A stretch of DNA of 57,093 nucleotides, from IMG/VR virus record IMGVR_UViG_3300030397_000312, positions 1 to 57,093 of that record, one strand, 5' to 3'. The DNA comes from a virus (lineage: Duplodnaviria > Caudoviricetes). The position numbers and the translations under genes were made by a program. Below, piece after piece: positions 12,497 through 47,215 of the stretch; within the stretch, counting starts at the first letter, position 1; every line of letters starts with the position of its first letter. Under the pieces are notes generated by a model, which worked only from the letters and a program-made list of their open reading frames with translations, was not told the DNA's origin and ran no database searches.

Positions 12497-12499
12497 ATA

Positions 12500-17631: not shown

Positions 17632-17641
17632 TATTTAATTC

Positions 17642-20323: not shown

Positions 20324-20324
20324 A

Positions 20325-20966
20325 TTACATCCTCTGCGGTAAATCTAATCGCGGAGTCGGCTGTTGGCCTAATCCCGTCTGCGGTATGCCTCGTAGATTT
20401 AACTTCCCACCTACTGACGATACCATTGGTTGATAACCGTTCTTGCCTTCTATTTGCTGTTGATACTTATGAAAGATAGCTTCTCCAAATGTCCGTGCAC
20501 CACCTTCACCAAGCGTTTGCATTGCTTGCTCTAATGTCGGTAACGGTCCTTCTGCAAGCTGTGCCGCAGAGACCTGCTTTGGTCCTCCAAATCGCGCACC
20601 AGTCATATCAAGTCCACCACCACGAGAAGCAGAATGCGTCTCCTGAACAGAGGGAATCTCGGGTGCGGGCACATGTTCAAAGCTTGATCCTTCAAGGACT
20701 TTCTTCCCGAAATCTACCATATCACCAAACTTGAAGCCTGGCGTTCCGGCATCCATCGTAGACTGAAAGGCACTTCCTTTTCCCGTCTCGGGATAACCTG
20801 GACGACCAGTGAATTCAAAGCCGGAAGGAATGGTATTGACCCCATCACCAGTCTTGAGCTTACTAAGTCCTGGTATGTCTAACGCATCGAGGAGACCATT
20901 CCAACCTTTTCCGGCGGCCTCAAACATTGCATCAAAGAAGCGCTCTGGCGCGTCAAATAATCCCAT
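20325..20966 (-). CDS. putative small internal virion protein
   Basis: MGLFD start, Gly-rich. Confidence 0.5.
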   Translation of the reverse strand: MGLFDAPERFFDAMFEAAGKGWNGLLDALDIPGLSKLKTGDGVNTIPSGFEFTGRPGYPETGKGSAFQSTMDAGTPGFKFGDMVDFGKKVLEGSSFEHVPAPEIPSVQETHSASRGGGLDMTGARFGGPKQVSAAQLAEGPLPTLEQAMQTLGEGGARTFGEAIFHKYQQQIEGKNGYQPMVSSVGGKLNLRGIPQTGLGQQPTPRLDLPQRM

Positions 20967-20969
20967 ATC

Positions 20970-22697
20970 CTATCTCCAGAAGCTAAATGGGTTGCCTCCA
21001 CTTGCGGTATTTAAGAAACTTGACTGTATTTGCGGTTGCGATTGTACATAATTAGAAGTATAGCCAGTGTCCGGTCGATATCCCATCGCAGACCAGTATG
21101 CGTAATTTGCTAACGCCGATGGGTCTTGCCAGTAATTCTGTACAGGATTTTGCGTTGCTGGTGGCGTATAACCAGAGACACTATTGTAACCACCTAACGA
21201 AACTCCTGGATATGACTGCTGCTGGAATCCACCAAGATTGCCGCCCATACCAAGGCTTTGCAGTAATGGCATAATTGCCTGCACGATAGATGTTAACTGC
21301 TGTACTTGCGTCTGTAACTGTTGCGGTTGTGTTGACATACTTTCGGGCGTGCCATTCACCGGGCGCATATCTACACCTCGCGGATTCCACCCTGAAGCTG
21401 ATCCGCGTGCGAGAAGGGAATTTTGACCATTATATCTAATATAATTAGAATACATGACTTCTTCTTCAGTCATGCCAAAGCGTTCCATCGCTTGCTGTAG
21501 CCGTGCTTCGTACATTGCAGCTTGCTGTTCAGGCGTCTTAATTGAATCTGTCATCGGCATTTGTGAAATGAAATTCATTGCCTCTCGCGACCTATTGAAT
21601 AAGTCTCGATCAACTGGATTCCCATTCCTATCTGTCGCGCCTCTGAGCAGCATCTCTTGCTTATCTAGTTGCGCACCTTGCCGAGCATTTTGCGTACCAC
21701 TCTGAAGACCTAATTGATTAGGACGTTGGAAATCGGATGGATTCGCTGCGCCACTAGGATTCTGATCTCCTGGAGCATTAATAGGCGGCATATTTGTCGG
21801 ACTGTCTGGTGTTTGCGGTTGTGGAGTTGTTCCGCCGCCTTGCTGTGGCGCACCTTCATTCCGCGCCCGTAGCCATCTATCTATCGCAGCTCTCGTTTCT
21901 CCATGTTGACCAGGGGATGGAACGGCATTCGGATTATCAGGATGTTGTGTAATTTGTGCTGGGTCCCACGCATTCGCCGTCGTGTTGCCACCCATACCAC
22001 TAACAAAGGACCCACGATCCTGATCATACCAATGAACACGACCATCTGGGCCAACATATGGAGTAATGTTTGTACGTTCTTGACCGATACGTTGCTGATC
22101 AGCGCCCGTTGGACGCGCATCAGGACTCTGACCTGTCCAAGTACCCTGTCCAGTACGCGGATCAAGACCAGTGACGGTTTTGTATTCTTGCTGCTTGAGC
22201 ACATAATTATCATGCGCATTAAGTGCTTCGCCGCGCATTACTTTATTGCGAGCTGCGGCAACTTCCCTATTGGCTGGAGCATGATCAAGTTGCGTGTTCG
22301 GCATCATGGCTCGCCGATATGCTGCATTCCTACCACCTGGGTCTTGCACATAGACCATACCAGTATACTTCGGCTGATTGTTGGGTGGCGCGGGGACTTT
22401 TGGCTTCCCGTGCCCACTTATTACACCACCTGGAGTAACCGTTGCCGTATGTGGACGATTCCGTGGATCATGTTTTGTGCCGCGTAAATCTACTGTTGTA
22501 CCACTAACTGCACCTTTTTTCCCAGTAAGAGGTTTGGGTTTTACTTGTCGCGAAGCCGAGGTGTTCCGCGAACTATACGGATTATAGCTTGTGCCTTTTG
22601 CGGCTGTACCTAATCGTGCAGCTTTATTCTTCGCGGCAGCTTTTGCAGCAGCGGCAGCACCTCTTGCTGTTATATGTGATCCGCCCTTATATGCCAT
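20970..22697 (-). CDS. low-complexity protein (basic N-terminus, Q/G/S/Y-rich C-terminus)
   Basis: 575 aa ORF, TAATG-coupled. Confidence 0.6.
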   Translation of the reverse strand: MAYKGGSHITARGAAAAAKAAAKNKAARLGTAAKGTSYNPYSSRNTSASRQVKPKPLTGKKGAVSGTTVDLRGTKHDPRNRPHTATVTPGGVISGHGKPKVPAPPNNQPKYTGMVYVQDPGGRNAAYRRAMMPNTQLDHAPANREVAAARNKVMRGEALNAHDNYVLKQQEYKTVTGLDPRTGQGTWTGQSPDARPTGADQQRIGQERTNITPYVGPDGRVHWYDQDRGSFVSGMGGNTTANAWDPAQITQHPDNPNAVPSPGQHGETRAAIDRWLRARNEGAPQQGGGTTPQPQTPDSPTNMPPINAPGDQNPSGAANPSDFQRPNQLGLQSGTQNARQGAQLDKQEMLLRGATDRNGNPVDRDLFNRSREAMNFISQMPMTDSIKTPEQQAAMYEARLQQAMERFGMTEEEVMYSNYIRYNGQNSLLARGSASGWNPRGVDMRPVNGTPESMSTQPQQLQTQVQQLTSIVQAIMPLLQSLGMGGNLGGFQQQSYPGVSLGGYNSVSGYTPPATQNPVQNYWQDPSALANYAYWSAMGYRPDTGYTSNYVQSQPQIQSSFLNTASGGNPFSFWR

Positions 22698-23530
22698 TAC
22701 ACACCCAATCCTTTAAATTTATTCCCACCACTGAAACCATATCGCGGATTTTTTGTCCACTGACTCAACAGGTTTCTCACGATCCCTTGAGTCTGCTCTC
22801 GTCGGCGATCTTCCTCAGAACGCTCAAAAGGACTCGTCGCGGCTCCTGGTGTTCCCTGTGCGCGAAACGGAGCTGGGCGTCCAGATGGGCGATTCTCCTG
22901 AAGATATTTCTGCCAAGCGGCACCGGCTTTTCGTCGATCTGCCCCTTCTCCTAATGTCACCCAAGATGGTAAATTGCCTGAGACATCACGCGCTTCTCCT
23001 GGCCGTGCGCGACTAATATATTTCTGGAGAAATTGGCCAAAACCACCTTCTCCTGGATCATTAATAGCGCTCATTTCTTGCTCAGTGAGTCCGATACCTT
23101 GCTTCGCAAAGGCAGATGCAAGTGCCGGACTCGTCGCCCTTCTCTCTGGAGCACGTTCAATAAGAGAGCTTGTTTCTGGCACAGCCGATGGCATCGGTTT
23201 TGATGCTGATGGTGTCCGTTGTGGCGTTCTATTGATAGGTTGCGGACCACTGCCAGTGTCCACATGTGCGTAACCGCTCGTACCATGCCCTGTTCTTATC
23301 CCACCGGAAGGTGTAATTGTTGCCGTTCGTGGATTCGCACGTGGACCAAATTTTGTACCCTTGAGATCAACCATAGTTCCACTCACAGGGCCTTGCTGTT
23401 CGCGAGGCTGACTAGTAGATGCGCGAATTGATCCCTGCGGACGAGTATTCTCTATTCTTCCAGGCGGTGGAATCCCAAATCGTCCACGGAAGTTACTCAT
23501 CGAAGCGCCTTGTCTATTAAACCATGACAT
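22697..23530 (-). CDS. R/P/S-rich disordered protein sharing a motif with its neighbour
   Basis: 277 aa ORF directly after a promoter. Confidence 0.6.
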   Translation of the reverse strand: MSWFNRQGASMSNFRGRFGIPPPGRIENTRPQGSIRASTSQPREQQGPVSGTMVDLKGTKFGPRANPRTATITPSGGIRTGHGTSGYAHVDTGSGPQPINRTPQRTPSASKPMPSAVPETSSLIERAPERRATSPALASAFAKQGIGLTEQEMSAINDPGEGGFGQFLQKYISRARPGEARDVSGNLPSWVTLGEGADRRKAGAAWQKYLQENRPSGRPAPFRAQGTPGAATSPFERSEEDRRREQTQGIVRNLLSQWTKNPRYGFSGGNKFKGLGV

Positions 23531-23563
23531 ATTATATCTCTTTTTTCTTTATTTTATGCGTGT

Positions 23564-23598
23564 ATTATACCATATATACGCGGTTTAGTCTAGGAAAA
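23564..23598 (-). promoter_or_regulatory. conserved phage promoter
   Basis: TTTTCC-TAGACT-N17-TATAAT. Confidence 0.7.
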
Positions 23599-23602
23599 TC
23601 AA

Positions 23603-24226
23603 CTAGCTAGTTGAGGGCGAGACCCATTGCATCCAAAACTCTGGACTACTCTGGAGTGATGCATTAATATCCAAATTACCCCCAGATGTTTGTGTGGCAA
23701 AAGATTCAACATAGTCATTTAATGCCATTTCATAAAAAGTTATTAAAGTCTGCGGCATTACAAGGCTTCCTGCGGTGGCTTGCCGCATGTCTTCCGCAAT
23801 AATAGTAGTCGTTGGGGTAGAATCGACATGTTTAATCGTAATGAGACGATCTCCCGCAGTAGATGCAGCCCATTCAACATGTAATCCTATCATATAGACG
23901 CCAGAACGTCCTGCTATGAGGCGGGAATTATTGGTCGAGGGGTCATGCATATTCCGAATATCGAAGCGTTCCTGATTATAGTCCAGGCGCTTTTCAGTCG
24001 CAGTGGTGCATGTAATTGCGGCGTCATTATAGACGCGACAATTATAATCGAACCCTAAGTCGTCAATTAATCTACGGTATTCTTCTACAAGGAAACGCAG
24101 GAGTGCGTTATGTTTCTTGGCGAGGTCTTCCGTGTCAACTGCAAAATCTTGTGCACTGAAAAGGTTACTCCGTTCAGCCTCGACTTGGAATAATCCTTCC
24201 GGGAATTCTAAGATGCGCCTGGGGAT
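23603..24226 (-). CDS. C1q/TNF-like beta-sandwich tail appendage protein
   Basis: Frame stays open upstream of the track start to ATC at 24226 (GGAG SD); CRVYND...ERFDIRNMHDP...SRL..SGVYMI pattern. Confidence 0.6.
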   Translation of the reverse strand: MPRRILEFPEGLFQVEAERSNLFSAQDFAVDTEDLAKKHNALLRFLVEEYRRLIDDLGFDYNCRVYNDAAITCTTATEKRLDYNQERFDIRNMHDPSTNNSRLIAGRSGVYMIGLHVEWAASTAGDRLITIKHVDSTPTTTIIAEDMRQATAGSLVMPQTLITFYEMALNDYVESFATQTSGGNLDINASLQSSPEFWMQWVSPSTS

Positions 24227-24828
24227 ATACTACTCCAATACTCCTCCAGTGATTTGATATGTTTACTTAAATTGCATTGACTATGTGTAGGGGCTAAGTT
24301 TTCTTCAGTATGTATGCCGCCCTTAACAATAGGTACGATGTGATCCATATGTAAATCGCCTTCGTCAATAGGCTTTTCACATAGATAACAGATCATTTCA
24401 TAAGCTTTACATATCTTTTTTATATCAACTGGAGACTGAACGGCTCCTAATCGGATTCGTCGTAACGCTTCATGATGGACTGAAATTTCAGGATGATCCT
24501 TTCTGTAGCGCTTATTATAACGACTAACTCGTTCCTTATTAATCGCTTTCCATCGCCGAGTTGCGGCGTTATATTTATCACGGGATAATTCACGTTGAAC
24601 GCGAATCTCCTCCCTATGTTCATCTTTCCAAAGTTTCTGCTTACGTCGTATAACGTCCCTATTGCGATAATAGTAAGAACGATCAGAGGCTCTTTTTTTG
24701 ACTACATCGACTGAGCTAAATTTACGACATTCTTTACATATCGTGTATAATCCATCCTTCTTAGCTCCATCCCTATGGTACGCTTCTGCTGTTAAAAGCT
24801 CACCGCATTTGGGACATAATTTACTCAT
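24208..24828 (-). CDS. HNH endonuclease with N-terminal Zn finger
   Basis: CPKC...CKEC; CYLC...HMDHIVPIVKGGIHTEENLAPTHSQCNLSK. Confidence 0.9.
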   Translation of the reverse strand: MSKLCPKCGELLTAEAYHRDGAKKDGLYTICKECRKFSSVDVVKKRASDRSYYYRNRDVIRRKQKLWKDEHREEIRVQRELSRDKYNAATRRWKAINKERVSRYNKRYRKDHPEISVHHEALRRIRLGAVQSPVDIKKICKAYEMICYLCEKPIDEGDLHMDHIVPIVKGGIHTEENLAPTHSQCNLSKHIKSLEEYWSSISPGAS

Positions 24829-25021
24829 TTTTCTTTGTCTTATTTTCTCTTACGATAGGTGCAGGCAATCCGCTATGATCGCACTCTGGACTCCAGATTC
24901 CATGCCTATGTGAATCTAACACTCCTTGCCCTCCGTGATCAAAGACTTTCTTAGGTTTATAGGTTCTTTGAGATCGGGCTTTTGGACATCTTATCCATTC
25001 GCCCTCTTGAGGGTCTCTCAT
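24821..25021 (-). CDS. hypothetical protein
   Basis: 66 aa with AGGAG SD. Confidence 0.5.
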   Translation of the reverse strand: MRDPQEGEWIRCPKARSQRTYKPKKVFDHGGQGVLDSHRHGIWSPECDHSGLPAPIVRENKTKKNE

Positions 25022-25023
25022 AA

Positions 25024-25269
25024 TTACTCCTTCTCTTCCGTCTCTTCTACTTCTTCGGGGTGATGTTTCTGAAATTCTCCTGAGAGATTATTATGTGCAT
25101 CCGCGACTCGCTTCATGTTCGCATCTAGATTCACGATTGCGCGTTTCATTGCTGTAATTTCTTTTGCAAGATCGGCATCTGGATTACCAATCCGCATCTC
25201 ACAACCCATCCCTAATCCAATAATAATCGCGAGTAAAAACCCGGTAAATGTGAGCATTGTGCTCTTCAT
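25024..25269 (-). CDS. putative lipoprotein with coiled coil
   Basis: Hydrophobic N-terminus ending LGMG-C, then heptad repeats. Confidence 0.6.
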   Translation of the reverse strand: MKSTMLTFTGFLLAIIIGLGMGCEMRIGNPDADLAKEITAMKRAIVNLDANMKRVADAHNNLSGEFQKHHPEEVEETEEKE

Positions 25270-25278
25270 AATAACTCC

Positions 25279-25590
25279 TTACTGACAGAATTTAGTGTCT
25301 ATTTTAAGACCTTTTCCTACCATAGCATTTTTCTCACGCTCTGTCAACCCACACAGATCGCCCATGAGTCGTGTTTTGAGGATATTATCATTATGATCTG
25401 CGACTATTCCTTTGAGGTTGCGATCAATGGTATCAAATAACTATGTATCCGCCTGTGCGTTAACTGCGGGTTGTTCGTCTTTGTCAAATACGACTATGTA
25501 CTTGCCGCTGTTTCCTTGTCGCTTTACCTCTAAAGCTTCTACTGTGATTGGAATACACATCAAAATAAAGGCTAACCACCAATTACGCAT
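25279..25590 (-). pseudogene. signal-peptide protein (103 codons) interrupted by an in-frame TAG
   Basis: MRNWWLAFILMCIPITVEA...ADT*LFDTID...KFCQ; TAG at 25441-25443; the frame fills the intergenic gap exactly. Confidence 0.55.
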
Positions 25591-27336
25591 TTATGAATTC
25601 TCTAATACGTCAATCCGCGCTTCTAAGTCTTCAATCGTCTGATTGAGTTCCTGGATAGCCTTGACAAGTAAAGCTGTCATGTGACGATACTTCACACCAC
25701 CCAATTCCCCATTCGCATATGTCGCTAATATTGGATTGATAGACTCCACTTCTTCAGCAATAAAACCAAGGTCTCGCTGTCCACCCTGATCTTCTGTCCA
25801 TGTATATTCAACTGGTCGTAATTCCATCAGCGTGTCCAGCCCTAACGGTAAGTCTTCTACATCTTCTTTGAATTTCGACAATGAGGTACAACTTGTCAGA
25901 TAGCTAATGCCCGAATTATCCCAACAGACCGTGGCTGAATTTGCGGTGGCAAATTTACCAACTTGCACATCTCCATCAGCTTCAAGTAATAAAGCTGTTG
26001 TTGTTGCGGAAAAGTCCGCATCTGCAACTGTGCTATCATTAAACATAAATACGACATTATCACTGCCATTTCCATGTACCATGCCAAACCCCTGGAATCC
26101 GGCATTAGAATTCTTCAGCGTATTCGCCGTAGCGGAATGAATAGCATGTAATGCAAAAAATGGTGCACCATTACCAGAATAATGACCCCATGCACTGGTG
26201 TAATCTGCGTTCGTATGTTCCGTCATGAAACTATTTCGTCCATCTTCAGAAAGAACACCTATGTCAGTATTAGCTGCGGTGGCTTGGATAATATGCAATC
26301 GTGCTTCAGGACTATCCGTATTGATACCAATATCTCCATCACCTTTCACGCGGAAAAAGTCCGTAACGCCGGACTGATCCTTAACAAGGAGCGCGGCATC
26401 AGAGCTGTTCGTTCCAGCAGTAATACGTACCCCAAAACTTTCACCTGAGTCTGTATCTTGCGATTCGACACGAACCACGTATTGATTATCAATCGCCGTT
26501 GCAATATCCAAGACCGCATCTGGAGTCGTATCGCCAATACCAATCACACCGCTTTGCAAGATACGCAGCGCTTCTGAATCTGCACCAGTTGCAAGGGCCA
26601 GATCAGCGGAAGATTTTTGCGTGCCGACTGTCAATAAGTCAGCATCATGATTCCAATATATCGCAGCTCCTAGACTATCACTTGGTGAACCAAACCCAAT
26701 ACTTGCATTATTTGCATCAGGTGTTAACACTGTAATACCGCCTGCTGCATTTTGCTCTACCACTAAGTCGTCGAAATTGGCTGCTGCTGTCACTGACCCA
26801 GCACTATTCGTTAAGGCGTGCAATGTGCCATCTGGCTCGACGTTAATACCCACGCGACGAGAAGCACCAACAAGCCGAAGAATAGAAGTCTCACTCCCGC
26901 CATCCATAACATAGAATTCCATGTCTGCATCTTCTGATCCGTCCGTGACTGTGGTCAGATTCACTTCAATACGTGCTTGTCGCTGCGAACCACCGGCATC
27001 TTCAACTTTAATTCCTAACGATCCACCAATACCAGCCTGCGGCGTCCCTGAAGTGGTCTTCTCAATATCAAGTACAACAGTATTGCTGCTATTATTAGCA
27101 TCATCGACCGTTGGTGCAGATGTGTCATCAGTCCCATATCCTAATTGCCCATTCGCACCAACACACTCAACAACCTCTCCGACCGTACATGTTCCGCCTT
27201 TTGTCGCGCCACCATCAATATCAAGAATATTGATTGGATCGTCGGCACTCTTACTATGAGTCAAAGAGTGATCAGCCGCGTGGACTGGTGCAGCTATTAA
27301 AAACGCCGCTAACAATGTTGCTACTATTTTCTTCAT
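25591..27336 (-). CDS. tail fibre with C-terminal peptidase S74 intramolecular chaperone and N-terminal signal-peptide-like sequence
   Basis: Repeats of the GxIGIxTxxPxAxLHI type; S..KFKEDV...LRPVEYTW...GFIAEEVE...VKY..LLVKAIQEL; start MKKIVATLLAAFLIAAPVHA. Confidence 0.85.
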   Translation of the reverse strand: MKKIVATLLAAFLIAAPVHAADHSLTHSKSADDPINILDIDGGATKGGTCTVGEVVECVGANGQLGYGTDDTSAPTVDDANNSSNTVVLDIEKTTSGTPQAGIGGSLGIKVEDAGGSQRQARIEVNLTTVTDGSEDADMEFYVMDGGSETSILRLVGASRRVGINVEPDGTLHALTNSAGSVTAAANFDDLVVEQNAAGGITVLTPDANNASIGFGSPSDSLGAAIYWNHDADLLTVGTQKSSADLALATGADSEALRILQSGVIGIGDTTPDAVLDIATAIDNQYVVRVESQDTDSGESFGVRITAGTNSSDAALLVKDQSGVTDFFRVKGDGDIGINTDSPEARLHIIQATAANTDIGVLSEDGRNSFMTEHTNADYTSAWGHYSGNGAPFFALHAIHSATANTLKNSNAGFQGFGMVHGNGSDNVVFMFNDSTVADADFSATTTALLLEADGDVQVGKFATANSATVCWDNSGISYLTSCTSLSKFKEDVEDLPLGLDTLMELRPVEYTWTEDQGGQRDLGFIAEEVESINPILATYANGELGGVKYRHMTALLVKAIQELNQTIEDLEARIDVLENS

Positions 27337-27345
27337 GTTATCCTC

Positions 27346-28956
27346 TTAATTATCATCTGCGTCAATGTCAACTTGAATACTATCTCGTTTCCACGCGAGC
27401 GGACCACGATACTTTACGTCAAGCGCAAGTTCATAGAATTCCCCATCATGACCAGTCGCAGGAAAGATCACATCACATGACATGAAGTGTCCCCAATTTG
27501 CATTACTCGTAATTGGAGCAATAACATCTTGAATCTGAAAACTTCCTTTCGTTTCTCCTAATGCAACAAAATCCGCATATGAACTCTCATTATTATCATA
27601 GAGTAAGCCGAGTGAGAGTGCCGACTTCCCGCGATAAATAGCTTTTGCACGATAGGCGCGGCCATACGAATCAGCTTCCCCAATACGAACAAAGGGCACT
27701 TGGATACGAGTATCAATATCCGTCTCTGTTCCGTTATCATCGTCTTTTTCAGGATTACTATTCGCGAAGTCGATCTCACGAATATCCCCTGTCGTATCGC
27801 CGATATACATCGCGCCACCATTCGTATCATCCTCTGCGGGACTATCCGCAATAGCATTGAATGGTAGCCCTGTCCAACGTGCCCAAAGGAATCGCGGCCC
27901 ATCTTGCGTTAACACACGCGAGACAACATATGTGGTATCCGCATCAGAAGGATCAAGTTGAATGATGTACATATCTTTTCGCGTGAAGTAGCATCCGACT
28001 GCACTCGTATAGAGATTCTGTCCACCAGGAGTCACAAATAAGCTACTAATCGGTAATGATAAATCCTGCGACTGCGGGCTTTGCCCATCAGTAATACGCA
28101 ATCCATTACGGCTCAAGTATACGACGCCCCACGGAGTCAACTTAATGGTCTCTGGAGCGATACATCCCTCCGTATTATATCGGACGAACTGCCCGGATGT
28201 GGTGGACCCGAACTCAATATCGCCTAAGAAGCGCCAAATACCAGAAGTTTTAAAAACCAGTAAAGCGTCTCCAATTCCCACAAGGCCAACAATGTCGCCA
28301 CCATCAGGGTCATTGGCAGATAGCTGGTTAAGAGAAGGAAAATTACTATCGGAATTAACGTCCGAAGCATAGACTGAGAAGTTAACATTATCATCATCTA
28401 CTACCCACATCCGCGACTTCCAAACTTCTATATAGGGGCCAATATCATCATTACTCGCGAAGACGCTAGTACTATCTTGCGTAATCGCAGTAATATTACT
28501 CCCGTCGTAGAACTTAATGCCCTCTTTCCCGTTGACCATATAGGTCTTATTTTTCGCGGGCCAGTTCACAAAATGCCAGCGCGTATTCGCAAGATAGCCC
28601 GTTGGACTCCCGCCAAGCGCATCATCAAAAACACCATCCGCATCATTATCGTGGACGAAATCCACATTTCCAGAGGAACTGTTCTGAATCACTGCGAGCC
28701 AGGAAGGACTATTACTCCCCGTATCTCTTGGATAATGTCGCCAGAGTCCTAAGATACTCGATGCATTCGTTGGCTTATCGAGATAACGTATACCTCTCCG
28801 TCCGCGTAATTTGATGGTTTCCCCACCAGACACGTATTCAATATTCTGGGCTTTGAGTAAGGCATTCTCAGGCGTGTAGATATTCAGCGCCCGCGAATCC
28901 CAAAGTCCCCCAGAGAAGTCGTTAAATCTTACAGTTGGGATAAACAATGCCTCCAT
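27346..28956 (-). CDS. tail nozzle / tail tubular protein B (P22 gp10-like)
   Basis: NDFSGGL start, beta-propeller-like pattern, GCIAPETI motif, size and position. Confidence 0.7.
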   Translation of the reverse strand: MEALFIPTVRFNDFSGGLWDSRALNIYTPENALLKAQNIEYVSGGETIKLRGRRGIRYLDKPTNASSILGLWRHYPRDTGSNSPSWLAVIQNSSSGNVDFVHDNDADGVFDDALGGSPTGYLANTRWHFVNWPAKNKTYMVNGKEGIKFYDGSNITAITQDSTSVFASNDDIGPYIEVWKSRMWVVDDDNVNFSVYASDVNSDSNFPSLNQLSANDPDGGDIVGLVGIGDALLVFKTSGIWRFLGDIEFGSTTSGQFVRYNTEGCIAPETIKLTPWGVVYLSRNGLRITDGQSPQSQDLSLPISSLFVTPGGQNLYTSAVGCYFTRKDMYIIQLDPSDADTTYVVSRVLTQDGPRFLWARWTGLPFNAIADSPAEDDTNGGAMYIGDTTGDIREIDFANSNPEKDDDNGTETDIDTRIQVPFVRIGEADSYGRAYRAKAIYRGKSALSLGLLYDNNESSYADFVALGETKGSFQIQDVIAPITSNANWGHFMSCDVIFPATGHDGEFYELALDVKYRGPLAWKRDSIQVDIDADDN

Positions 28957-29418
28957 CGTTTATTATTCACCACACCGGCTATCAACTGATGGCTCACTTT
29001 ATACTTAGTCGCAAGCTTCCTATGTGATGTTAAGCCTTCATTATATTCTTTGCGAATCTCTTTCACATCATTATCTGATAATTTTGCCCTGTTATTTTTC
29101 TCTCCATAAGTGTGTCTTTTTTTTAACAACTTTATCTTCCGTGTTATCTCTATTGGAACCTAAAAATAGATGAGCCGGATTAACACAGTGCCCTATATCA
29201 CACTTATGTAACACATGAAGCCCTTTCGGTATTCGACCTCGATGCAATGTAAATGACAGGCGATGAGCACATATGACCTTACCGTCTCTATTAAGAACGC
29301 CATATCCATGATTACCAAGAGCGGCATCCCATAACCAACAACCATCATCTTGACGTTTAACTTTAGATCAAAAAACGTCCAAGATTGGTTTCTTCTTATA
29401 TTTACGTACAGTTGGCAT
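28929..29418 (-). pseudogene. degenerate HNH endonuclease
   Basis: MPTVRK...VF*SKV..GCWLW..AHRLSF..HKCD..CVNPAHLFLG; TGA at the conserved Trp and an extra A in an A8 run near 29120. Confidence 0.8.
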
Positions 29419-29831
29419 TAGTACCCCGATTGTGCGCTACGTTTCGCCTTACCTTTTAATCTGTCTTTCGTCCCTAATCGTTCGGCTATGCGCCGCTGCT
29501 GAGCAGCTTTAAAATCAGGCTTCACGCCAGTGCGTAGTTGAGGTAAATCTCCAGGCTTTAATCTTCGCGTCGCCTTAAGTAATTCTGGAAAATCTTTCGA
29601 CGCATTCCCAGGCATTTCATGCGTGATTGATCCAGTACCCTTACGAGTGACCTTCGGGCGTGGATTTTTCACCGTATCTTTCGCTTCACTCTTGACCGTC
29701 TTTCGTGCGCCTTTTTTAGCCGCTTTCTTCGCACTCTTCTTGGCGGATTTCTTTCCTAGATGTTTAATTAACTTCTTTAGTCCTACTTTGGCCGCAGCTC
29801 CCGCTGCTCCCATTAGTGCTGGATGTGGCAT
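29418..29831 (-). CDS. Lys-rich histone-H1-like basic protein
   Basis: KKSAKKSAKKAAKKGARK repeats. Confidence 0.65.
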   Translation of the reverse strand: MPHPALMGAAGAAAKVGLKKLIKHLGKKSAKKSAKKAAKKGARKTVKSEAKDTVKNPRPKVTRKGTGSITHEMPGNASKDFPELLKATRRLKPGDLPQLRTGVKPDFKAAQQRRIAERLGTKDRLKGKAKRSAQSGY

Positions 29832-29849
29832 ATTTAACTCGGCAATCTA

Positions 29850-30308
29850 CTATACATGCGTCCAAACCTGACGATGTATAATTCTATTAATAGCCGCTGA
29901 TGTTACGTCATATTTACGTGCTAATTTGGCTTGAGATATATTCCCTTCATCGTATTGATGTCTAATATTGATAATTTGATCTTCATTGAATTTAGACGCA
30001 CCGTTACGGGAACCCCTTGGACCTTTTCCCCTAGCTCGTCCTTTATGAACCATATCCGTCATATTATCATAATGAGTACCTATAGTTAAGTGATCAGGAT
30101 TCACACATGATGGATTGTCGCAACGATGCATAACGTGCATCCCATCAGGGATATCCCCTATTAGATGCTGATATGAATACCTATGCGCTCTATAATTCAC
30201 TCCGTCAGCCTTGAATTTCCCATATCCGCGACTAAGATTTCCCATCCATCTCCAGCAACCTTTGCCGTTAGTATCTATACAAATAAAATTCCAGAAATTA
30301 TCTTTCAT
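29850..30308 (-). CDS. HNH homing endonuclease
   Basis: CWRW..GYG..AHRYSY..HRCDNPSCVNPDHLTIGTHYDN. Confidence 0.9.
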   Translation of the reverse strand: MKDNFWNFICIDTNGKGCWRWMGNLSRGYGKFKADGVNYRAHRYSYQHLIGDIPDGMHVMHRCDNPSCVNPDHLTIGTHYDNMTDMVHKGRARGKGPRGSRNGASKFNEDQIINIRHQYDEGNISQAKLARKYDVTSAAINRIIHRQVWTHV

Positions 30309-30317
30309 AAATATTCT

Positions 30318-30959
30318 CTATGATGGTAATCTTGATCTTAATACCGCGCCCCAAGTCTGAACGAGTGTATCAAGGAATTCTGCGACAGCATTTGTAATTT
30401 GTTCGCGATCTCCCGCGTCTTCATCTGCTTCTTCTGTACTTTCACGCAGCATATTCGCCGCTGTCCGATACATGAGCATCGGATTTAAGTAAGTCATAAC
30501 CGGATCATCATCGTCTGGTCGGATAATACTAAAGACTGTTAAGCCTGAGCTTCCACTCCCTGCGGTATCTGGTGGTGGTACTACAGCGAAGTCAATGAGG
30601 AGGGTGCCAACAACCGAATCCAGACCTTCGGGAATATGGTCCGTAAACCAATATTCCGGCGTGCCGTCAGACTCGCTCTCCCAGGTACTTCGCACCCAAT
30701 CGAGAGTATCAGACGTGGCTTTTCGGAGCACGCCTTGGTTATATAGCACATCCAGGATACGATGTGTCTGTGCGTCCGGGGAATATATGCTCTGACTAAC
30801 GACCGTATCAATCGTCTCTTCCTGGGCAGTGAGGTCGAACTCACGTATGAGTTGGTCCAGTGCGCGTTTATATACTGTTTCAATCTCTTCATCGCGATTC
30901 GCATCCTTGATCCAGAGATAATCTTTGACTAAATCTTTAACATCAGTTGGTATCGGCAT
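30318..30959 (-). CDS. head-tail adaptor / tail ring protein
   Basis: Helical N-terminus, GTPEYW...VVPPPD motif shared with two paralogues. Confidence 0.6.
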   Translation of the reverse strand: MPIPTDVKDLVKDYLWIKDANRDEEIETVYKRALDQLIREFDLTAQEETIDTVVSQSIYSPDAQTHRILDVLYNQGVLRKATSDTLDWVRSTWESESDGTPEYWFTDHIPEGLDSVVGTLLIDFAVVPPPDTAGSGSSGLTVFSIIRPDDDDPVMTYLNPMLMYRTAANMLRESTEEADEDAGDREQITNAVAEFLDTLVQTWGAVLRSRLPS

Positions 30960-32350
30960 TAGTCATTCCCGCTTCTACGTTGATCTACAATCTTATGAGA
31001 TGCGACCTCTTTCTGTACTGGTCCTGGCATAAATCGTCGATCTCGCCGCAATCCTATCGCTTCCATAAACTGCTGCATGAGTCCCTGCACACGCTCGCTA
31101 ATCTTTCCTTCAGAGATGAGTGCGAGAGAGGCAGCATAGAGTGGCAGTAGGTTATGCCATACGGGGTCCACTGAGGGTGGCGCATATTTATCCGTCGCCC
31201 CATCTGGGACTTTCAAGCGTGTCACCTTAGCCGTAAAGCTCGCATTTGGCACGGGATAGAACCCCATTATTGTACCGCCAATCATATAATAGAACTCTGG
31301 CGTTCCAGTCGTTGAGTTCCAATTTGCATCGAGTGCTTGTAAATGTGCAATATGAGATTCTTGTAATGCGACATTATTAATCGCGACTCTGAGTGGCGCG
31401 ATAAAATCCGAGAATGTATTATGTATTTTATAGGTCGCCGTGCCACTCGTAATGGACAGATCGCCTGTTTCCTCTCCTAGTGCGCGATAGATGGTGACAA
31501 ATAATTCCGCTTGCTCTAGGAAGACACGCACTTGCGTCTCTGTATGGAAAAGTCCATCCTCATCATCAATTAATCGCTGCGTTCGCTCAATCAGCGTACT
31601 CCATGACTCTTCCTGTGCACCAAGCAAGTAGAAGTTAATATGATCTGATGCTATAGGATTCATTCCTAATGTAATCACATCGCCAGTATCATCTGAAATA
31701 TATTCTGTTGCTGCCGCGAGATAATCTGTCCGCTCATCAAAGAGCTGACCATTCAGTGTTGTGAGCAATCGCGGCTTATCTCCACTAATCTGCCCTGTCT
31801 TTGTTAAGGTATATGCAGCATTGGTGCCATCCTGCGAGCCAGTAAACGCGAGTGTTGCGGTATTCGTATCTGTTGGGACCGGCAAAAAAGCTTCAATACG
31901 ATCCGTCCGAAATGGCGCTGTCCAGAAGGATATACTATCCGTATCCGTGCCAGTTGTGTACGTTATTTCATTTGCACCTGGTCCAGATGCAACCTCTTCA
32001 CATGCGAGACCATTAAAGAAGATTAGTGCATTCGTACTACTTGGTTTTGCTTTAATCGTAAATGTCTGATTACTATTGTCGATATCGCCAGTCAGTTCTG
32101 TTCTCCGCAGCGACGTGAGAATATTGTCCTGCACAAACGCCCAGAATCCATCTCCTGAATTAGGCGCAAGGCCCACCTCTATAGCTGTTCCCGTAACGGT
32201 ACATTCCCCTACTCCTGGAGTACCTCCGACAACATCGAGGATAAGTCCATTATGAATAATGAGCACTAATCCACCTGTCGCTGGCGTTGTGTCCAACGTA
32301 AAGGAAGTAATTGCTCCATCTGGAGATTCTGAAAAACCAGCCTTAACCAT
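30959..32350 (-). CDS. tail ring protein with three N-terminal beta-sandwich repeats
   Basis: Three repeats G..DG.N..FT....NG; C-terminal adaptor domain GTPEFYY...GFYPVPN. Confidence 0.6.
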   Translation of the reverse strand: MVKAGFSESPDGAITSFTLDTTPATGGLVLIIHNGLILDVVGGTPGVGECTVTGTAIEVGLAPNSGDGFWAFVQDNILTSLRRTELTGDIDNSNQTFTIKAKPSSTNALIFFNGLACEEVASGPGANEITYTTGTDTDSISFWTAPFRTDRIEAFLPVPTDTNTATLAFTGSQDGTNAAYTLTKTGQISGDKPRLLTTLNGQLFDERTDYLAAATEYISDDTGDVITLGMNPIASDHINFYLLGAQEESWSTLIERTQRLIDDEDGLFHTETQVRVFLEQAELFVTIYRALGEETGDLSITSGTATYKIHNTFSDFIAPLRVAINNVALQESHIAHLQALDANWNSTTGTPEFYYMIGGTIMGFYPVPNASFTAKVTRLKVPDGATDKYAPPSVDPVWHNLLPLYAASLALISEGKISERVQGLMQQFMEAIGLRRDRRFMPGPVQKEVASHKIVDQRRSGND

Positions 32351-33412: not shown

Positions 33413-34327
33413 CTATAAGTCCAAAAGCAAGTCGTGACGTGACGCAAAATCGTCACTAACTTCATTACCTCTTTCGCTGTTCCTCTGCGCATGGGGAGCA
33501 CCAAAGGCATTTATATCTCTCATTTGTAATTCTTGCAATGTCGCTATAGATTGCTGCTCCCATTTATCCGCTACCGAGAACCATTTCTGAGCATCTTGTG
33601 GGTCTTTCTCAGCTAAGGCAATGGACATCGCCGCCTGAGCTGCGGTAGATTTAATGAGTACAGTGACAATCATTTCCTCCAAGGTAGTGCTATTAGAAGT
33701 AAGAGCAAACGACAACATCTTCATTCCGACATAATTGAAATGATCCTGTGTATTCGGCACTGGCCACAATTCAATAATCCGTCCGCCACCACTCCCGAAC
33801 CCACTATACGAGTAATAGAGCGGGTCTCCTGAAGATTGCCGCGACTCATCTAAGTCTGCGAGGTCTTCATGGGTGACTTCAATAAGGTCTCGCCCACCTC
33901 CAGAGATGGATATAAGATACCAAACCGCCGGATCAAGCTCGTACCGAGCCTGGTTAAGTGTGTAAGTCTTGCTGGCACCCGTGGTCCCACCATAATTGTA
34001 CTTGAGTGTGCCAGTTGTCGTATTAGTGAATAAGTTAACCCGGTAAAAGTCCGAGTCAACCCGTAGGTATCCATCGTCATAATCACTCGTAAATGCAGTT
34101 GACGCACCCGCGATAGTCTTCGCTGCGTTTGTTAATGTTATCGTACCTCCAGAAAGCTCCGCAAAGGTGTTAAATTCGCCATCTAATTTGGCGAATGACC
34201 ATCCCCACGTATTCGCGAGTTCGCGGTACTGTGTCTCCAAGAGCGCACGAATAGCAGGCCCTTCGAGCTTATGGTGTACCATTGAAAGGATACGCCCTTC
34301 AATCTCTTTAACAGTCAGTCCCCCCAT
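33413..34327 (-). CDS. head-tail adaptor / tail tubular protein A-like
   Basis: WGWSFA, SGDPLYY...IELWPVPN; inserted GTITLTN..IAGASTAFTS domain. Confidence 0.65.
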   Translation of the reverse strand: MGGLTVKEIEGRILSMVHHKLEGPAIRALLETQYRELANTWGWSFAKLDGEFNTFAELSGGTITLTNAAKTIAGASTAFTSDYDDGYLRVDSDFYRVNLFTNTTTGTLKYNYGGTTGASKTYTLNQARYELDPAVWYLISISGGGRDLIEVTHEDLADLDESRQSSGDPLYYSYSGFGSGGGRIIELWPVPNTQDHFNYVGMKMLSFALTSNSTTLEEMIVTVLIKSTAAQAAMSIALAEKDPQDAQKWFSVADKWEQQSIATLQELQMRDINAFGAPHAQRNSERGNEVSDDFASRHDLLLDL

Positions 34328-35037: not shown

Positions 35038-35346
35038 TTAATCCAGTTGTTCACTAATCAGCCAGCCGCCGACTGGTGGTACAATCACCTTTGCGGCACT
35101 CCATAGAACACCCGAAATCGTGGTCGGGTCACTTCCTTTACTCTCTATAATCACCGCTGGTGGCGGTAATGCTGGACATGGTTCTGGTTGCTTCACACAT
35201 TTCTGTAAGTATTTCGTTGCATATTTATTATAAAGTAATGCAGAATCTTCTATTGCCTCATTGCCACGCAATGCTTGCGACGTCGAACATCCACTCAATA
35301 TAATCATGAGGGTCGCGATTAAAATAATCTTAAGAGCCGTTATCAT
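35038..35346 (-). CDS. lipoprotein, o-spanin-like
   Basis: Lipobox LSG-C; Pro/Cys-rich segment. Confidence 0.6.
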   Translation of the reverse strand: MITALKIILIATLMIILSGCSTSQALRGNEAIEDSALLYNKYATKYLQKCVKQPEPCPALPPPAVIIESKGSDPTTISGVLWSAAKVIVPPVGGWLISEQLD

Positions 35347-35674
35347 ACCTATCCGCCTCTAGGCGATCTAACCGTTTCTCATTTTGTTCTACAATCGCTA
35401 ATACCCTACCGAGCTGCTGTTGAGACTTAAGAAATGTTTCATTCATTTTTTCAATACGCCTAAGTCCATCATTAAGTTTTGCCTTATCGCGAACGTATGG
35501 AGCTTGATGTTCTAGTTGCTCTGTAGTCACAAAATTCGCGGCTGCCTGTGTATATTCTAATCGTAAATCTTGAATATCTCCCTTAATATGAATAACGATT
35601 CCAAGATACATAGCCGCGCCCGTTAGTAGCGCTGTTGTAATTACAGGCAATAAGTGGTCTTTCCAATTTGTCAT
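35330..35674 (-). CDS. single-TM coiled-coil protein (i-spanin- or holin-like)
   Basis: N-terminal TM then heptads; overlaps the lipoprotein gene. Confidence 0.55.
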   Translation of the reverse strand: MTNWKDHLLPVITTALLTGAAMYLGIVIHIKGDIQDLRLEYTQAAANFVTTEQLEHQAPYVRDKAKLNDGLRRIEKMNETFLKSQQQLGRVLAIVEQNEKRLDRLEADRYDNGS

Positions 35675-40343: not shown

Positions 40344-40378
40344 ATTATACCTGAATTTGATCGTCAGTTCAAGGAAAA
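40344..40378 (-). promoter_or_regulatory. conserved phage promoter
   Basis: TTTTCC-TTGAAC-N17-TATAAT. Confidence 0.7.
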
Positions 40379-46927: not shown

Positions 46928-47215
46928 TTACTCTTTATCGAGCATTTTTCCCTCTTTATATTTTTCTTCAGTAACAGAATCTATAATATTAACACTATGC
47001 GGCGACCCTGCATGGTAATTCACTTGGATTTTGCCAAAGAATTCAGGTCGTCGCGTGCGGTCACGTAATTCTTTATATTCTGCGTATGGGATATTATATG
47101 GAATATTCATGCGGACCCCGCGATCATTGACGTGGATTTCGCATACTTTCCCCATCTTCCCATCATCGAGCATTTGGTCGATAAGTTCGTGTAACCATTC
47201 TCTATTCTTCATCAT
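46928..47215 (-). CDS. hypothetical protein (DUF2292-like C-terminal half)
   Basis: FFGKIQVNYHAGSPHSVNI pattern. Confidence 0.5.
   Translation of the reverse strand: MMKNREWLHELIDQMLDDGKMGKVCEIHVNDRGVRMNIPYNIPYAEYKELRDRTRRPEFFGKIQVNYHAGSPHSVNIIDSVTEEKYKEGKMLDKE

What the first reader, a model, noticed from the sequence alone, without database searches (positions are those of the whole stretch)
25024..27336. Tail fibre with a Sec-type signal peptide, followed by a secreted protein and a lipoprotein
Seen: a clear S74-chaperone fibre begins MKKIVATLLAAFLIAAPVHA (basic, hydrophobic, xHA cleavage) where a virion-anchoring domain is expected, and its four Cys form two close pairs. The next two genes also carry export signals. 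Known: tailed-phage virions normally assemble in the cytoplasm. Inference: the fibre may be exported and folded in the periplasm with dedicated helpers and joined to particles at lysis, or it may be a secreted receptor decoy or exclusion factor. I know of no characterised example.
Basis: partly seen in the sequence, partly recalled or inferred. Interest (0 to 1): 0.8.

Follow-up and report, generated by a model that had tools for sequence, protein, structure and literature searches.

The report
Phage tail fibre with export signal
An uncultivated short-tailed phage encodes, at its tail-fibre locus, a fibre that starts with a classical bacterial secretion signal; related phages keep the signal, which suggests the fibre matures outside the cytoplasm where virions are built.

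Summary
ORF 25591-27336 (-) is a 581-aa fibre with a C-terminal Peptidase_S74 chaperone (Pfam E 5.5e-10). A Shine-Dalgarno site precedes its ATG. It starts with a tripartite Sec-type signal: MKK, a 15-residue uncharged core, then V-H-A. The signal is not a one-off. The syntenic 1262-aa fibre of metagenome contig L012 has one, and so do the relatives P0040/P0157 and P0067. In an unrelated complete podovirus, G001, three consecutive ORFs at the tail-fibre position also have one. Two cultured-phage homologues lack it.

Downstream lie a small signal-peptide protein, a lipoprotein and a Cys/His protein, in the same order as in L011 and L013. In the window the first of these is cut by an in-frame TAG, and L012 shows no lipoprotein at that place. 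They are therefore unlikely to be obligatory helpers.

The best structural matches are the exported Bdellovibrio MAT fibres. Five literature searches found no tailed-phage tail fibre described with a signal peptide.

Export is well supported; the destination is open. I put periplasmic maturation with attachment at lysis at about 0.4, and a non-virion envelope-acting fibre at about 0.35. No SignalP run or experiment was possible.

The parts
27346..28956 (-). Upstream 536-aa beta-rich structural protein, a candidate tail hub or nozzle. Its stop is 9 nt before the fibre start.
   Evidence: ORF. No Pfam or NCBIfam family. It is 38% identical to the 436-aa ORF directly upstream of the L012 fibre. 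The ESM Atlas places it next to viral ~500-aa clusters (TM 0.78-0.85); one of these has PF11134 Phage_stabilise in 17% of members, which is a lead only. My AF2 model was unusable at pLDDT 36.
25591..27336 (-). Fibre gene, 581 aa: signal peptide, short conserved N-module, shaft repeats, distal domain, Cys loop, S74 chaperone.
27277..27336 (-). Codons 1-20: Sec-type (SPase I) signal peptide, with predicted cleavage after A20.
   Evidence: Anatomy. SD site and start codon. The AF2 model shows an isolated helix over aa 2-14 at pLDDT below 40. Signal-like N-termini are also present in the L012 fibre, P0040, P0157 and P0067.
27154..27270 (-). Conserved mature N-terminal module, aa 23-61, containing the Cys50-Cys58 pair.
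   Evidence: Local alignment to the L012 fibre scores 56, against 27.5 +/- 5.4 for shuffles; 2 of 2000 shuffles reach the observed score. It is not conserved in P0040.
26257..27159 (-). Shaft repeats, about aa 60-360, with three (V/I)-G-I-(N/G)-x2-3-P-x3-L loop motifs at aa 162, 265 and 336.
   Evidence: The exhaustive search with aa 1-300 gave 3324 proteins at E <= 0.001, mostly matching aa 130-300 and often in several copies per protein. Motifs. Model pLDDT is 79-86 over aa 201-280.
25594..25926 (-). Cys471-Cys483 loop, S485/K490 cleavage dyad and the S74 intramolecular chaperone.
   Evidence: Pfam match. Invariant C, S and K columns in alignment A3. Model pLDDT is 84-93 over aa 491-580. This stretch is 49% identical to P0040.
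25279..25590 (-). Small signal-peptide protein gene, interrupted by an in-frame TAG at 25441-25443. The 49 aa before it and 53 codons after it in the same frame together match the ~105-aa protein of relatives.
   Evidence: TAG is a normal stop in the window. No family or Atlas match.
25024..25269 (-). 81-aa lipoprotein-like protein: Cys23 followed by a helical, charged tail.
   Evidence: TAAGGAG SD site. It aligns with the 76-aa lipoproteins of L011 and L013, which have a canonical F-A-G-C box. No homologue is seen at this place in L012.
24821..25021 (-). 66-aa Cys/His-containing small protein without an export signal. It is the last member of the conserved downstream set.
   Evidence: It aligns strongly with the L011 and L013 ORFs in the same position. 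The word-index search found only the protein itself.

Best explanation
The gene encodes the phage's own receptor-binding fibre, made as a Sec precursor. Steps marked (shown) rest on calls; those marked (inferred) do not.

1. The N-terminal 20 residues have the features of an SPase I signal, and relatives keep them (shown).
2. The signal sends the unfolded chain through the host Sec translocon and is cut after A20 (inferred).
3. In the periplasm the C-terminal S74 domain drives trimerisation and then cuts itself off at S485/K490. The domain and the dyad are shown; the activity is inferred.
4. The two short Cys loops can be oxidised there (inferred).
5. Heads with complete tails form in the cytoplasm without fibres (inferred).
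6. When the holin opens the inner membrane, the two compartments mix inside the still intact outer membrane. The conserved ~40-residue mature N-module then docks the trimers onto the tail. This would be a last step like the late addition of P22 tailspikes, which works in vitro (that fact is recalled, not taken from a call) (inferred).

The downstream small periplasmic protein and lipoprotein are accessory envelope proteins of the kind often encoded beside receptor-binding genes. They are not obligatory helpers.
For: Position:
- The gene starts 9 nt after the hub-like gene and lies two to three genes after a Pfam SU10_adaptor protein (30959-32350, E 2.7e-15). It sits ahead of seven large Cys-free internal-protein-like ORFs.
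- The same hub-then-fibre order occurs in L012.

No other candidate:
- It is the only ORF in the window with fibre or receptor-binding family hits among the ORFs I scanned.

Conservation of the signal:
- The window, the L012 fibre, P0040, P0157 and P0067 all have a positively charged n-region, an uncharged run (13-15 residues in the window, L012 and P0067; P0040's run continues into mature sequence) and small residues at -3/-1.

Second lineage:
- G001 is an IMG/VR record of 40,793 bp that CheckV rates 100% complete, with terminase, portal and major head protein hits.
- After its 843-aa and 1706-aa internal proteins it has a 664-aa fibre-like ORF (PHROG tail fiber, 3.6e-14), a 515-aa ORF and a 246-aa Laminin_G_3 ORF. 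All three have signal-like N-termini.

A docking element may exist:
- Aa 23-61 are significantly similar to the L012 fibre.

Host envelope:
- A spanin-like pair is present: an N-terminal TMD plus coiled coil at 35330-35674, overlapping a lipoprotein with an L-S-G-C box at 35038-35346. A Phage_lysozyme ORF is also present. Together these point to a diderm host with a periplasm.
Against: - No precedent was found in five literature searches. Tailed phages are known to assemble in the cytoplasm.
- The mature N-terminus leaves only about 40 residues before the shaft repeats, and that module is absent from P0040.
- G001's 246-aa protein is essentially a signal plus a lectin domain, with little room for a virion anchor. 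That fits a secreted protein better.
- The Cys pairs do not separate signal-bearing from signal-less homologues.
- Many structural ORFs of the window have no annotation, so another receptor-binding protein without a signal could be hidden among them.
- The signal-peptide call rests on my own rules, not on SignalP.
- The closest solved structures, and about half of the genome-encoded S74 relatives, are cellular exported fibres that are not virion parts.
Confidence: 0.4

Rival explanations
1. The protein is an exported fibre that never joins the virion. It would be a phage-borne counterpart of cellular exported S74 fibres such as the Bdellovibrio MAT adhesins. After Sec export and S74 maturation it stays in or on the envelope of the infected cell, or is set free at lysis. 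There it binds a surface or periplasmic glycan or protein. Possible uses are masking or occupying the phage's own receptor (superinfection exclusion, or protecting progeny from debris), acting as a decoy, or changing cell adhesion. It would work together with the neighbouring periplasmic protein and lipoprotein.
For: - The top Foldseek hits of the model are five chains of the exported Bdellovibrio fibres Bd2133, Bd1334 and Bd3182 (E 5.6e-5 to 6.1e-4). In passages of PMC10769870 these are described as signal-peptide proteins on the cell surface, 13 of 21 with S74.
- Of 50 genome-encoded S74 relatives with a complete N-terminus, 23 are signal- or TM-like by my script.
- The best of them, L016 from an Alphaproteobacteria MAG, has 52% identity in its best segment, shares the Cys loop, and sits among non-phage neighbours.
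- Exported proteins next to receptor-binding genes are known: Lom is mentioned in a passage of PMC12309495; T5 Llp and Cor are recalled.
- G001 couples its fibre-like ORF with a bare signal-plus-lectin protein.
- There is no recognisable virion-anchor family in aa 1-60.
Against: - The gene occupies the tail-fibre slot in two phage lineages, and no signal-less fibre is recognisable in either. That includes G001, which is rated 100% complete.
- It is large and length-variable, like a host-range determinant (581, 1262 and 404 aa).
- Known exclusion factors are small.
- MAT fibres have a conserved ~130-aa N-domain for surface attachment. Nothing equivalent is evident here, because aa 60-160 are a shaft repeat that recurs along P0067.
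Confidence: 0.35
2. The hydrophobic N-terminus is not used for export. It stays on the protein as a structural element, for example a trimerising or tail-socket helix, or a membrane-active tip. The fibre then assembles in the cytoplasm like any other.
For: - Virion proteins with hydrophobic segments exist, such as tape-measure and ejection proteins (recalled).
- The three G001 N-termini resemble each other in the n-region (F-K-K/E), as shared docking peptides would.
- AF2 places a helix at aa 2-14.
Against: - All 7 fibre-locus N-termini examined have the full n-h-c layout, with small residues at -3/-1 shortly after the hydrophobic run. These are the window, L012, P0040, P0067 and the three in G001. 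A structural helix does not need that layout.
- The h-regions are 13-15 residues in four of them, which is shorter than a membrane anchor.
- Such an N-terminus would be recognised by the host targeting machinery whatever its intended role (established knowledge of Sec/SRP targeting).
- The sequence of the segment is not conserved between the window and L012; only its character is.
Confidence: 0.1
3. The gene is a recent capture of a host surface-fibre gene, or a mis-assembly, with no lasting function in the phage.
For: - Cellular signal-bearing S74 fibres are common, and one is 52% identical (best segment) in the C-terminal module.
- The window is a metagenome-derived record that CheckV estimates at 74% complete.
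Against: - Synteny and the signal are kept between phages whose hub-like proteins are only 38% identical.
- GC content across the gene is unremarkable: 0.46 for 26001-28000, against 0.41-0.50 along the window.
- Spacing to the upstream gene is tight, there is a good SD site, and the 581-codon frame is intact.
Confidence: 0.05

Closest known systems
Phage tail fibres and spikes with a C-terminal Peptidase_S74 intramolecular chaperone, such as K1F endosialidase and the T5 L-shaped fibre pb1. PMC10769870 names these as the S74 references.
   Same: The C-terminal S74 domain is above the Pfam threshold. The S-x4-K dyad is present. An upstream beta-rich trimer-type shaft is present. PHROG tail-fibre hits are found, and the gene sits in a tail module.
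   Different: Those proteins start with a virion-binding domain and fold in the cytoplasm. This one starts with a Sec-type signal. The two cultured-phage homologues I read, Pelagibacter phage Bylgja gp15 and Synechococcus phage S-B28 gp08, have no such signal.
Bdellovibrio bacteriovorus MAT (mosaic adhesive trimer) fibres (Caulton et al., Nat Microbiol 2024, PMC10769870; I read passages only, and its supplements were not open).
   Same: Signal peptide, long trimeric beta-helical fibre with recurring V-G-x-x-x-x-P-x-x-x-L type loops, and an S74 end in 13 of 21 members. These are the best Foldseek matches to my model.
   Different: MATs are cellular proteins displayed on a predator's surface, and all share a ~130-aa N-domain after the signal. 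Here the gene lies in a phage tail module. The post-signal module is only about 40 aa. Foldseek TM-scores are low (0.11-0.14 by query) because the model is a poor monomer with mean pLDDT 61.
Exported proteins encoded beside receptor-binding genes: lambda Lom (passage of PMC12309495), and T5 Llp and the Cor proteins of phi80, N15 and T1 (recalled).
   Same: The small signal-peptide protein and the lipoprotein directly downstream of the fibre occupy the same kind of position and have the same kind of export signals.
   Different: There is no sequence similarity to any family in Pfam, PHROGs or NCBIfam. Function is untested. In those systems the fibre itself is not exported.
Phage proteins that use the host Sec system for lysis: spanins, and SAR or secreted endolysins (established knowledge, recalled).
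   Same: They show that late phage proteins are routinely exported in infected cells. This window has its own spanin-like pair.
   Different: Those are lysis effectors, not fibre-like adhesins.

Membership tests
Peptidase_S74 chaperone-bearing fibre or spike | PF13884 match above the gathering threshold at the C-terminus | tested here: met
   E 5.5e-10, 39.8 bits against a cut-off of 22, over aa 488-535.
Peptidase_S74 chaperone-bearing fibre or spike | Catalytic Ser-Lys dyad (S-D-x-x-x-K type) at the cleavage site | tested here: met
   The sequence is S485-L-S-K-F-K490. Ser and Lys are invariant in the 4-sequence alignment A3. Asp at +1 is replaced by Leu. Cleavage itself was not tested.
Peptidase_S74 chaperone-bearing fibre or spike | N-terminal virion-attachment domain | tested here: inconclusive
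   No family covers aa 1-60. A ~40-aa module is conserved with L012 but is absent from P0040.
Sec/SPase I signal peptide | Positive n-region, a 7-15 residue hydrophobic h-region, and a c-region with small residues at -3 and -1 | tested here: met
   MKK (+2), a 15-residue uncharged run, then V-H-A before ADHSL. This is a rule-based script only; SignalP was not available. The criteria are recalled from von Heijne's rules.
Sec/SPase I signal peptide | Actual export and cleavage | not testable with these tools
   Needs a PhoA fusion, cell fractionation, or N-terminal mass spectrometry.
Bdellovibrio MAT superfamily | Signal peptide plus a trimeric beta-helical fibre, with or without S74 | tested here: met
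   Foldseek ranks 1-5 are MAT chains (E 5.6e-5 to 6.1e-4, probability 0.99-1.00). Family features were taken from passages of PMC10769870.
Bdellovibrio MAT superfamily | Conserved ~130-aa beta-rich N-terminal domain directly after the signal peptide | not tested
   No full-length MAT sequence was at hand, because the PDB chains cover C-terminal parts only. In the window, aa 60-160 behave as a shaft repeat that recurs five times or more along P0067, which argues against an N-specific domain.
Bacterial lipoprotein (SPase II), for the 81-aa ORF | Lipobox [LVI][ASTVI][GAS]C after a hydrophobic run (pattern recalled) | tested here: inconclusive
   The window has G-M-G-C, with G at -3. Its homologues in L011 and L013 have the canonical F-A-G-C. 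There is no Pfam LPAM hit for this ORF.
Llp/Cor-type exclusion lipoproteins | Sequence or profile similarity to the known families | tested here: not met
   No Pfam, PHROG (apart from one unknown-function family at E 0.0059) or NCBIfam match. Only the genomic position is alike.

The most novel reading that the evidence does not exclude
Some tailed phages build their receptor-binding fibres outside the cytoplasm. The fibre is secreted by Sec and trimerised and trimmed by its S74 domain in the periplasm. It is fitted to finished, fibreless particles only when holin lesions join the two compartments. Infectivity would then be acquired at the moment of lysis. This would be a compartmentalised assembly pathway not described for Caudoviricetes. 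It recurs in at least two unrelated podovirus lineages: the window with L012, and G001.
Probability: 0.4. Interest if true: 0.9.

Novelty: new variant of a known kind. Interest (0 to 1): 0.7.

Why it matters
Tailed-phage virions are taken to assemble wholly in the cytoplasm, and annotation pipelines call any S74 fibre a virion part.

A conserved secretion signal on the protein at the tail-fibre slot leads to one of two conclusions. Either the last assembly step can take place in the periplasm or at lysis, which is a new morphogenetic route with consequences for in vitro fibre swapping and host-range engineering. Or phages carry exported fibre-like adhesins that act on the infected cell's envelope, which would be a new class of exclusion or decoy factor related to the Bdellovibrio MAT fibres.

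Both ideas can be tested directly once an isolate, or a cloned gene, is in hand.

The case also warns that 'tail fibre' annotations in viromes include proteins that may never be in a virion.

Tried and rejected
Close relatives
- Searching by the fibre found none in IMG/VR. The word-index search returned only the protein itself at full length.
- The hub-like protein had no match in phages, in IMG/VR or in genome contigs.
- The portal had no match in IMG/VR.
- The 66-aa protein matched only itself.
- Megablast of 20000-32000 against phages gave no match.

Viral loci found through P0040 and P0067 (L002-L010)
- These are other large fibres sharing short motifs. None that I could read from its start has a signal. 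They were not used further.

Structure and binding
- The AF2 model of the fibre is poor: mean pLDDT 61, and below 50 for aa 1-57.
- The AF2 model of the hub-like protein is unusable at pLDDT 36, so I ran no fold search on it.
- Complex prediction of the hub-like protein with three copies of fibre aa 21-130 returned 'no answer' (score 0.01). This is neither support nor evidence against.
- PDB sequence searches of the hub-like, 347-aa, 237-aa, 235-aa and 356-aa proteins gave nothing at E below 0.1.
- The Atlas gave nothing for the small signal-peptide protein.
- NCBIfam gave nothing for 9 proteins.

Ideas rejected
- TAG recoding as the explanation of the interrupted small gene. TAG ends 16 of 64 genes, including the largest, and there are no tRNA genes.
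- An internal start that would make a signal-less isoform. Between codon 2 and M139 the only in-frame start-type codon is TTG at codon 25, and it has no SD site (read).
- The 81-aa lipoprotein as the o-spanin. A better spanin-like pair lies at 35038-35674.
- Cys pairs as proof of periplasmic folding. The pairing is non-random, but it is not specific to signal-bearing homologues.

Inconclusive scans
- The promoter and terminator scan of 22500-30500 was not informative. It found 16 promoter-like sites against 17.8 expected. One site at 25347-25319 (-) lies upstream of the lipoprotein gene.

- Supplements of PMC10769870, which hold the list of MAT proteins, could not be seen.
Full report
**What the window is.** The 57,093-base window is an IMG/VR virus record that CheckV estimates at 74% complete. 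All long ORFs lie on the minus strand, and there are no tRNA genes.

PHROG and Pfam hits identify these genes:

| Gene | Coordinates |
|---|---|
| Terminase | 52746-54563 |
| DnaB-like helicase | 49524-50948 |
| Portal | 47215-49047 |
| Major head protein (phrog_9953, 1.6e-56) | 44043-45029 |
| SU10_adaptor-type protein | 33413-34327 |
| SU10_adaptor-type protein | 30959-32350 |
| Phage_lysozyme | 6553-6972 |
| Exonuclease | 5488-6093 |
| RecT | 4416-5501 |
| RecA-like protein | 2959-3996 |
| HNH endonucleases | several sites |

The nearest cultured relatives by capsid protein are podoviruses at 26-33% identity: Myxococcus phages Mx8 and Mx9, Stenotrophomonas phage BUCT555, a Bradyrhizobium phage, and the Brucella phages. 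I saw no integrase among the ORFs I scanned. This is a divergent, probably lytic, short-tailed phage.

**The observation.** ORF 25591-27336 (-) encodes 581 aa. It carries Peptidase_S74 at aa 488-535 (E 5.5e-10, 39.8 bits against a cut-off of 22). It also hits 17 PHROG families, 14 of them labelled tail.

Its ATG is the first start codon after the stop of the upstream gene, 9 nt away. AGAGGA lies 5 nt before it. The N-terminus is MKK, then a 15-residue uncharged run, then V-H-A followed by ADHSL. That is the classical SPase I layout.

The four cysteines are at 50, 58, 471 and 483. Only 0.5% of random placements pair this closely.

The next ORF (25441-25590) begins with a signal-like segment ending V-E-A. 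The ORF after that (25024-25269) has a lipobox-like G-M-G-C, with Cys at position 23, behind a TAAGGAG site.

My crude script flags 8 of 73 non-overlapping minus-strand ORFs as having an N-terminal signal or TM segment. Three of the eight are these consecutive genes. SignalP could not be run.

**Is the signal kept in relatives?** At full length the fibre is an orphan.

An exhaustive search with aa 1-300 found 3324 proteins at E <= 0.001. Most match a shaft repeat at about aa 130-300. Of the 155 proteins then in hand, including the query itself, 21 have a signal-like N-terminus by my script.

Two of these are informative:
- P0067 (1406 aa) aligns from residue 1 through the signal and an A-A-D-H junction (33% over 171 columns).
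- P0040 (404 aa) has a signal, two shaft repeats, the same Cys loop and S74. It is 49% identical over the last 118 residues.

Fetching relatives of P0157 from metagenomes gave three contigs.

L012 is syntenic with the window:
- It has a 436-aa homologue of the window's upstream 536-aa protein, at 38% identity.
- That gene is followed by a 1262-aa fibre, which starts with MGLFRK plus a 14-residue uncharged run. AGAGGG lies 7 nt upstream of its start.
- The fibre is followed by a signal-peptide protein of about 103 aa.
- Its eight cysteines form four close pairs (p 1.4e-4).

L011 and L013 carry the fibre's C-terminus, followed in the same order as in the window by:
- a ~105-aa signal-peptide protein;
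- a 76-aa lipoprotein with a canonical F-A-G-C box;
- a Cys/His small protein;
- a protein ending like the window's 115-aa ORF at 23603-23950.

After the signal, aa 23-61 of the window fibre are significantly similar to the L012 fibre. The score is 56 against 27.5 +/- 5.4 for shuffles, and 2 of 2000 shuffles reach it.

By contrast, the two cultured-phage homologues I read have ordinary N-termini. They are Pelagibacter phage Bylgja gp15 and Synechococcus phage S-B28 gp08.

**A second lineage.** P0060, one of the signal-bearing homologues, lies on IMG/VR record G001 (40,793 bp, CheckV 100%). G001 has terminase, portal and major head protein hits.

Its gene order recalls T7: two large internal proteins of 843 and 1706 aa, the second with an LPD38 domain, then the fibre slot. 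The T7 comparison is recalled, not taken from a call. In that slot stand three consecutive ORFs, each with a positive n-region, a hydrophobic run and an A-x-A-type end:
- the 664-aa fibre-like P0060 (PHROG tail fiber, 3.6e-14);
- a 515-aa ORF;
- a 246-aa Laminin_G_3 protein.

So the feature is not confined to one phage group.

**The accessory genes.** In the window, the small signal-peptide gene is broken by an in-frame TAG at 25441-25443. The same frame continues for 53 more codons, and the two parts together align with the intact relatives. TAG is an ordinary stop here: the 64 genes I counted end in TAA 42 times, TAG 16 times and TGA 6 times.

L012 shows no lipoprotein and no Cys/His protein at this place.

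Neither protein has any family match. Because each is missing or broken in one genome, I read them as accessory envelope proteins. That is the kind of gene known beside receptor-binding genes: Lom, and Llp and Cor (recalled). They do not look like obligatory fibre chaperones.

**Host envelope.** A 114-aa protein with an N-terminal TMD and a coiled coil (35330-35674) overlaps by 17 nt a 102-aa lipoprotein with an L-S-G-C box (35038-35346). This is the usual layout of an i-spanin and o-spanin pair. It points to a diderm host with a periplasm, but this is an inference.

**What the fibre resembles.** The AF2 model is weak, with mean pLDDT 61. It shows an isolated low-confidence helix at aa 2-14 and confident stretches at about aa 200-280 and 490-580.

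Foldseek against the PDB ranks five chains of the Bdellovibrio fibres Bd2133, Bd1334 and Bd3182 first (E 5.6e-5 to 6.1e-4). The K1F chaperone, T4 gp34 and T5 fibres follow at weaker scores.

Passages of PMC10769870 describe these MAT proteins as follows:
- There are 21 in B. bacteriovorus.
- All have a signal peptide followed by a conserved ~130-aa domain.
- Thirteen end in an S74 domain with an SDxxxK motif.
- They form intertwined trimeric fibres with a V-G-G/N-pi-x-x-P-x-x-x-L capping loop.
- They are located on the cell surface.

The window fibre has three similar loops, at aa 162, 265 and 336. Its dyad is S485 and K490.

A scan of one genome per species with the C-terminal alignment found 92 relatives, of which 80 were kept. 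Many come from Patescibacteria, DPANN archaea, Alphaproteobacteria, Bacteroidales and Bdellovibrio-like MAGs. Of the 50 whose N-terminus lies inside the locus, 23 are signal- or TM-like.

The best of these is L016, from an Alphaproteobacteria MAG. It is a 511-aa protein with a signal, the same Cys loop, S74 and a C-terminal TM segment, among non-phage neighbours.

Exported S74 fibres are therefore a common cellular kind. The phage protein has their format, but it sits in a tail module.

**Mechanism.** Export is the well-supported step, and I put it at about 0.75-0.8. What happens next is inference.

For a virion role:
- the gene holds the fibre slot in two lineages;
- no other fibre is recognisable, even in a genome rated complete;
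- a short N-module is conserved with L012;
- late fibre or spike addition is chemically feasible outside the cell (P22; recalled).

For a non-virion role:
- the cellular MAT analogy;
- no recognisable anchor domain;
- P0040 lacks the N-module;
- G001 has a bare signal-plus-lectin ORF;
- the neighbours look like exclusion genes.

The Cys pairs do not discriminate. Eighteen signal-like and 119 other homologues have the same Cys density (p 0.87).

I commit to periplasmic maturation with attachment at lysis at 0.4. An exported non-virion fibre follows at 0.35, an uncleaved structural N-terminus at 0.1, and capture or artefact at 0.05.

**Novelty.** Five full-text searches returned no paper describing a tailed-phage tail fibre or spike with a signal peptide. 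The search terms were combinations of:
- tail fiber, signal peptide, periplasm;
- S74;
- Sec-dependent;
- superinfection exclusion, receptor-binding protein;
- tailspike, signal sequence.

For these I saw listings and abstracts, plus passages of PMC12309495 and PMC12923769. Subscription journals are not covered.

I class the finding as a new variant of a known kind: an S74 fibre in the exported, MAT-like format, inside phage tail modules. If the lysis-coupled assembly route is real, it would be categorically new.

**Limits.**
- No SignalP run was possible.
- There was no read mapping, because the tool was unreachable.
- No genomic context could be fetched for most signal-bearing homologues.
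- The models are poor and the complex prediction gave no verdict.
- The phage group is known from one record plus three metagenome contigs.

Noticed in passing
window 25279-25590 (-), TAG at 25441-25443: The small signal-peptide gene downstream of the fibre is split by an in-frame TAG. Relatives in L011, L012 and L013 encode an uninterrupted protein of about 105 aa. TAG is a normal stop elsewhere in the window, so this is a nonsense allele or an assembly error. It could not be checked in reads.
   Followed up: partly
window 37580-38650 (-): A 356-aa orphan protein with a textbook signal peptide (MKIFLLLAMLLIPSSAYA, then AFDH) and 14 cysteines (3.9%). It is a second large exported protein, lying between the head and tail modules. 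It has no family, PDB or homologue match. The gene caller behind P0160 started it 8 codons later.
   Followed up: partly
window 35038-35674 (-): A spanin-like pair. The 114-aa protein has an N-terminal TMD and a coiled coil. It overlaps by 17 nt a 102-aa lipoprotein with an L-S-G-C box (Pfam LPAM_1, E 0.0057, below the cut-off). No holin was identified.
   Followed up: partly
window 7205-23530 (-): Seven consecutive large ORFs of 277, 575, 213, 893, 905, 804 and 1763 aa contain no cysteine at all. By eye several are rich in Gln, Asn, Gly and Trp. Only the last has a family hit (transglycosylase, phrog_4067). They are presumably internal or ejection proteins.
   Followed up: no
window 24208-24828, 29850-30308, 6053-6556, and 28929-29247 (-): Several HNH endonuclease genes are scattered through the structural and lysis regions. 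The two short ORFs at 28929-29247 read like a frameshifted copy of the 152-aa HNH at 29850-30308. That reading comes from the translations and was not tested.
   Followed up: no
window 40364-42765 (-): A 561-aa protein with glycosyltransferase and methyltransferase domains and a 247-aa glycosyltransferase-like protein sit between the head and tail genes. They might glycosylate virion or exported proteins.
   Followed up: no
L096 / G001 (IMG/VR record, 40,793 bp): L096 10001-14284 (+), and 20011-20634 (-): An unrelated complete podovirus has three consecutive signal-bearing ORFs at the fibre slot: a 664-aa fibre-like ORF, a 515-aa ORF and a 246-aa Laminin_G_3 ORF. It also has a 207-aa signal-bearing ORF with a G-D-S-N motif, which reads like an SGNH esterase. 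That last reading is by eye and was not tested. The start of the 664-aa ORF has no SD site.
   Followed up: partly
L016 3783-8504 (+) (Alphaproteobacteria MAG): Two tandem cellular proteins of 1055 and 511 aa. Each has an N-terminal signal or TM segment, fibre repeats, S74, and then a C-terminal TM segment after the S74 domain. Autocleavage would leave the chaperone tethered in the membrane and release the fibre.
   Followed up: no
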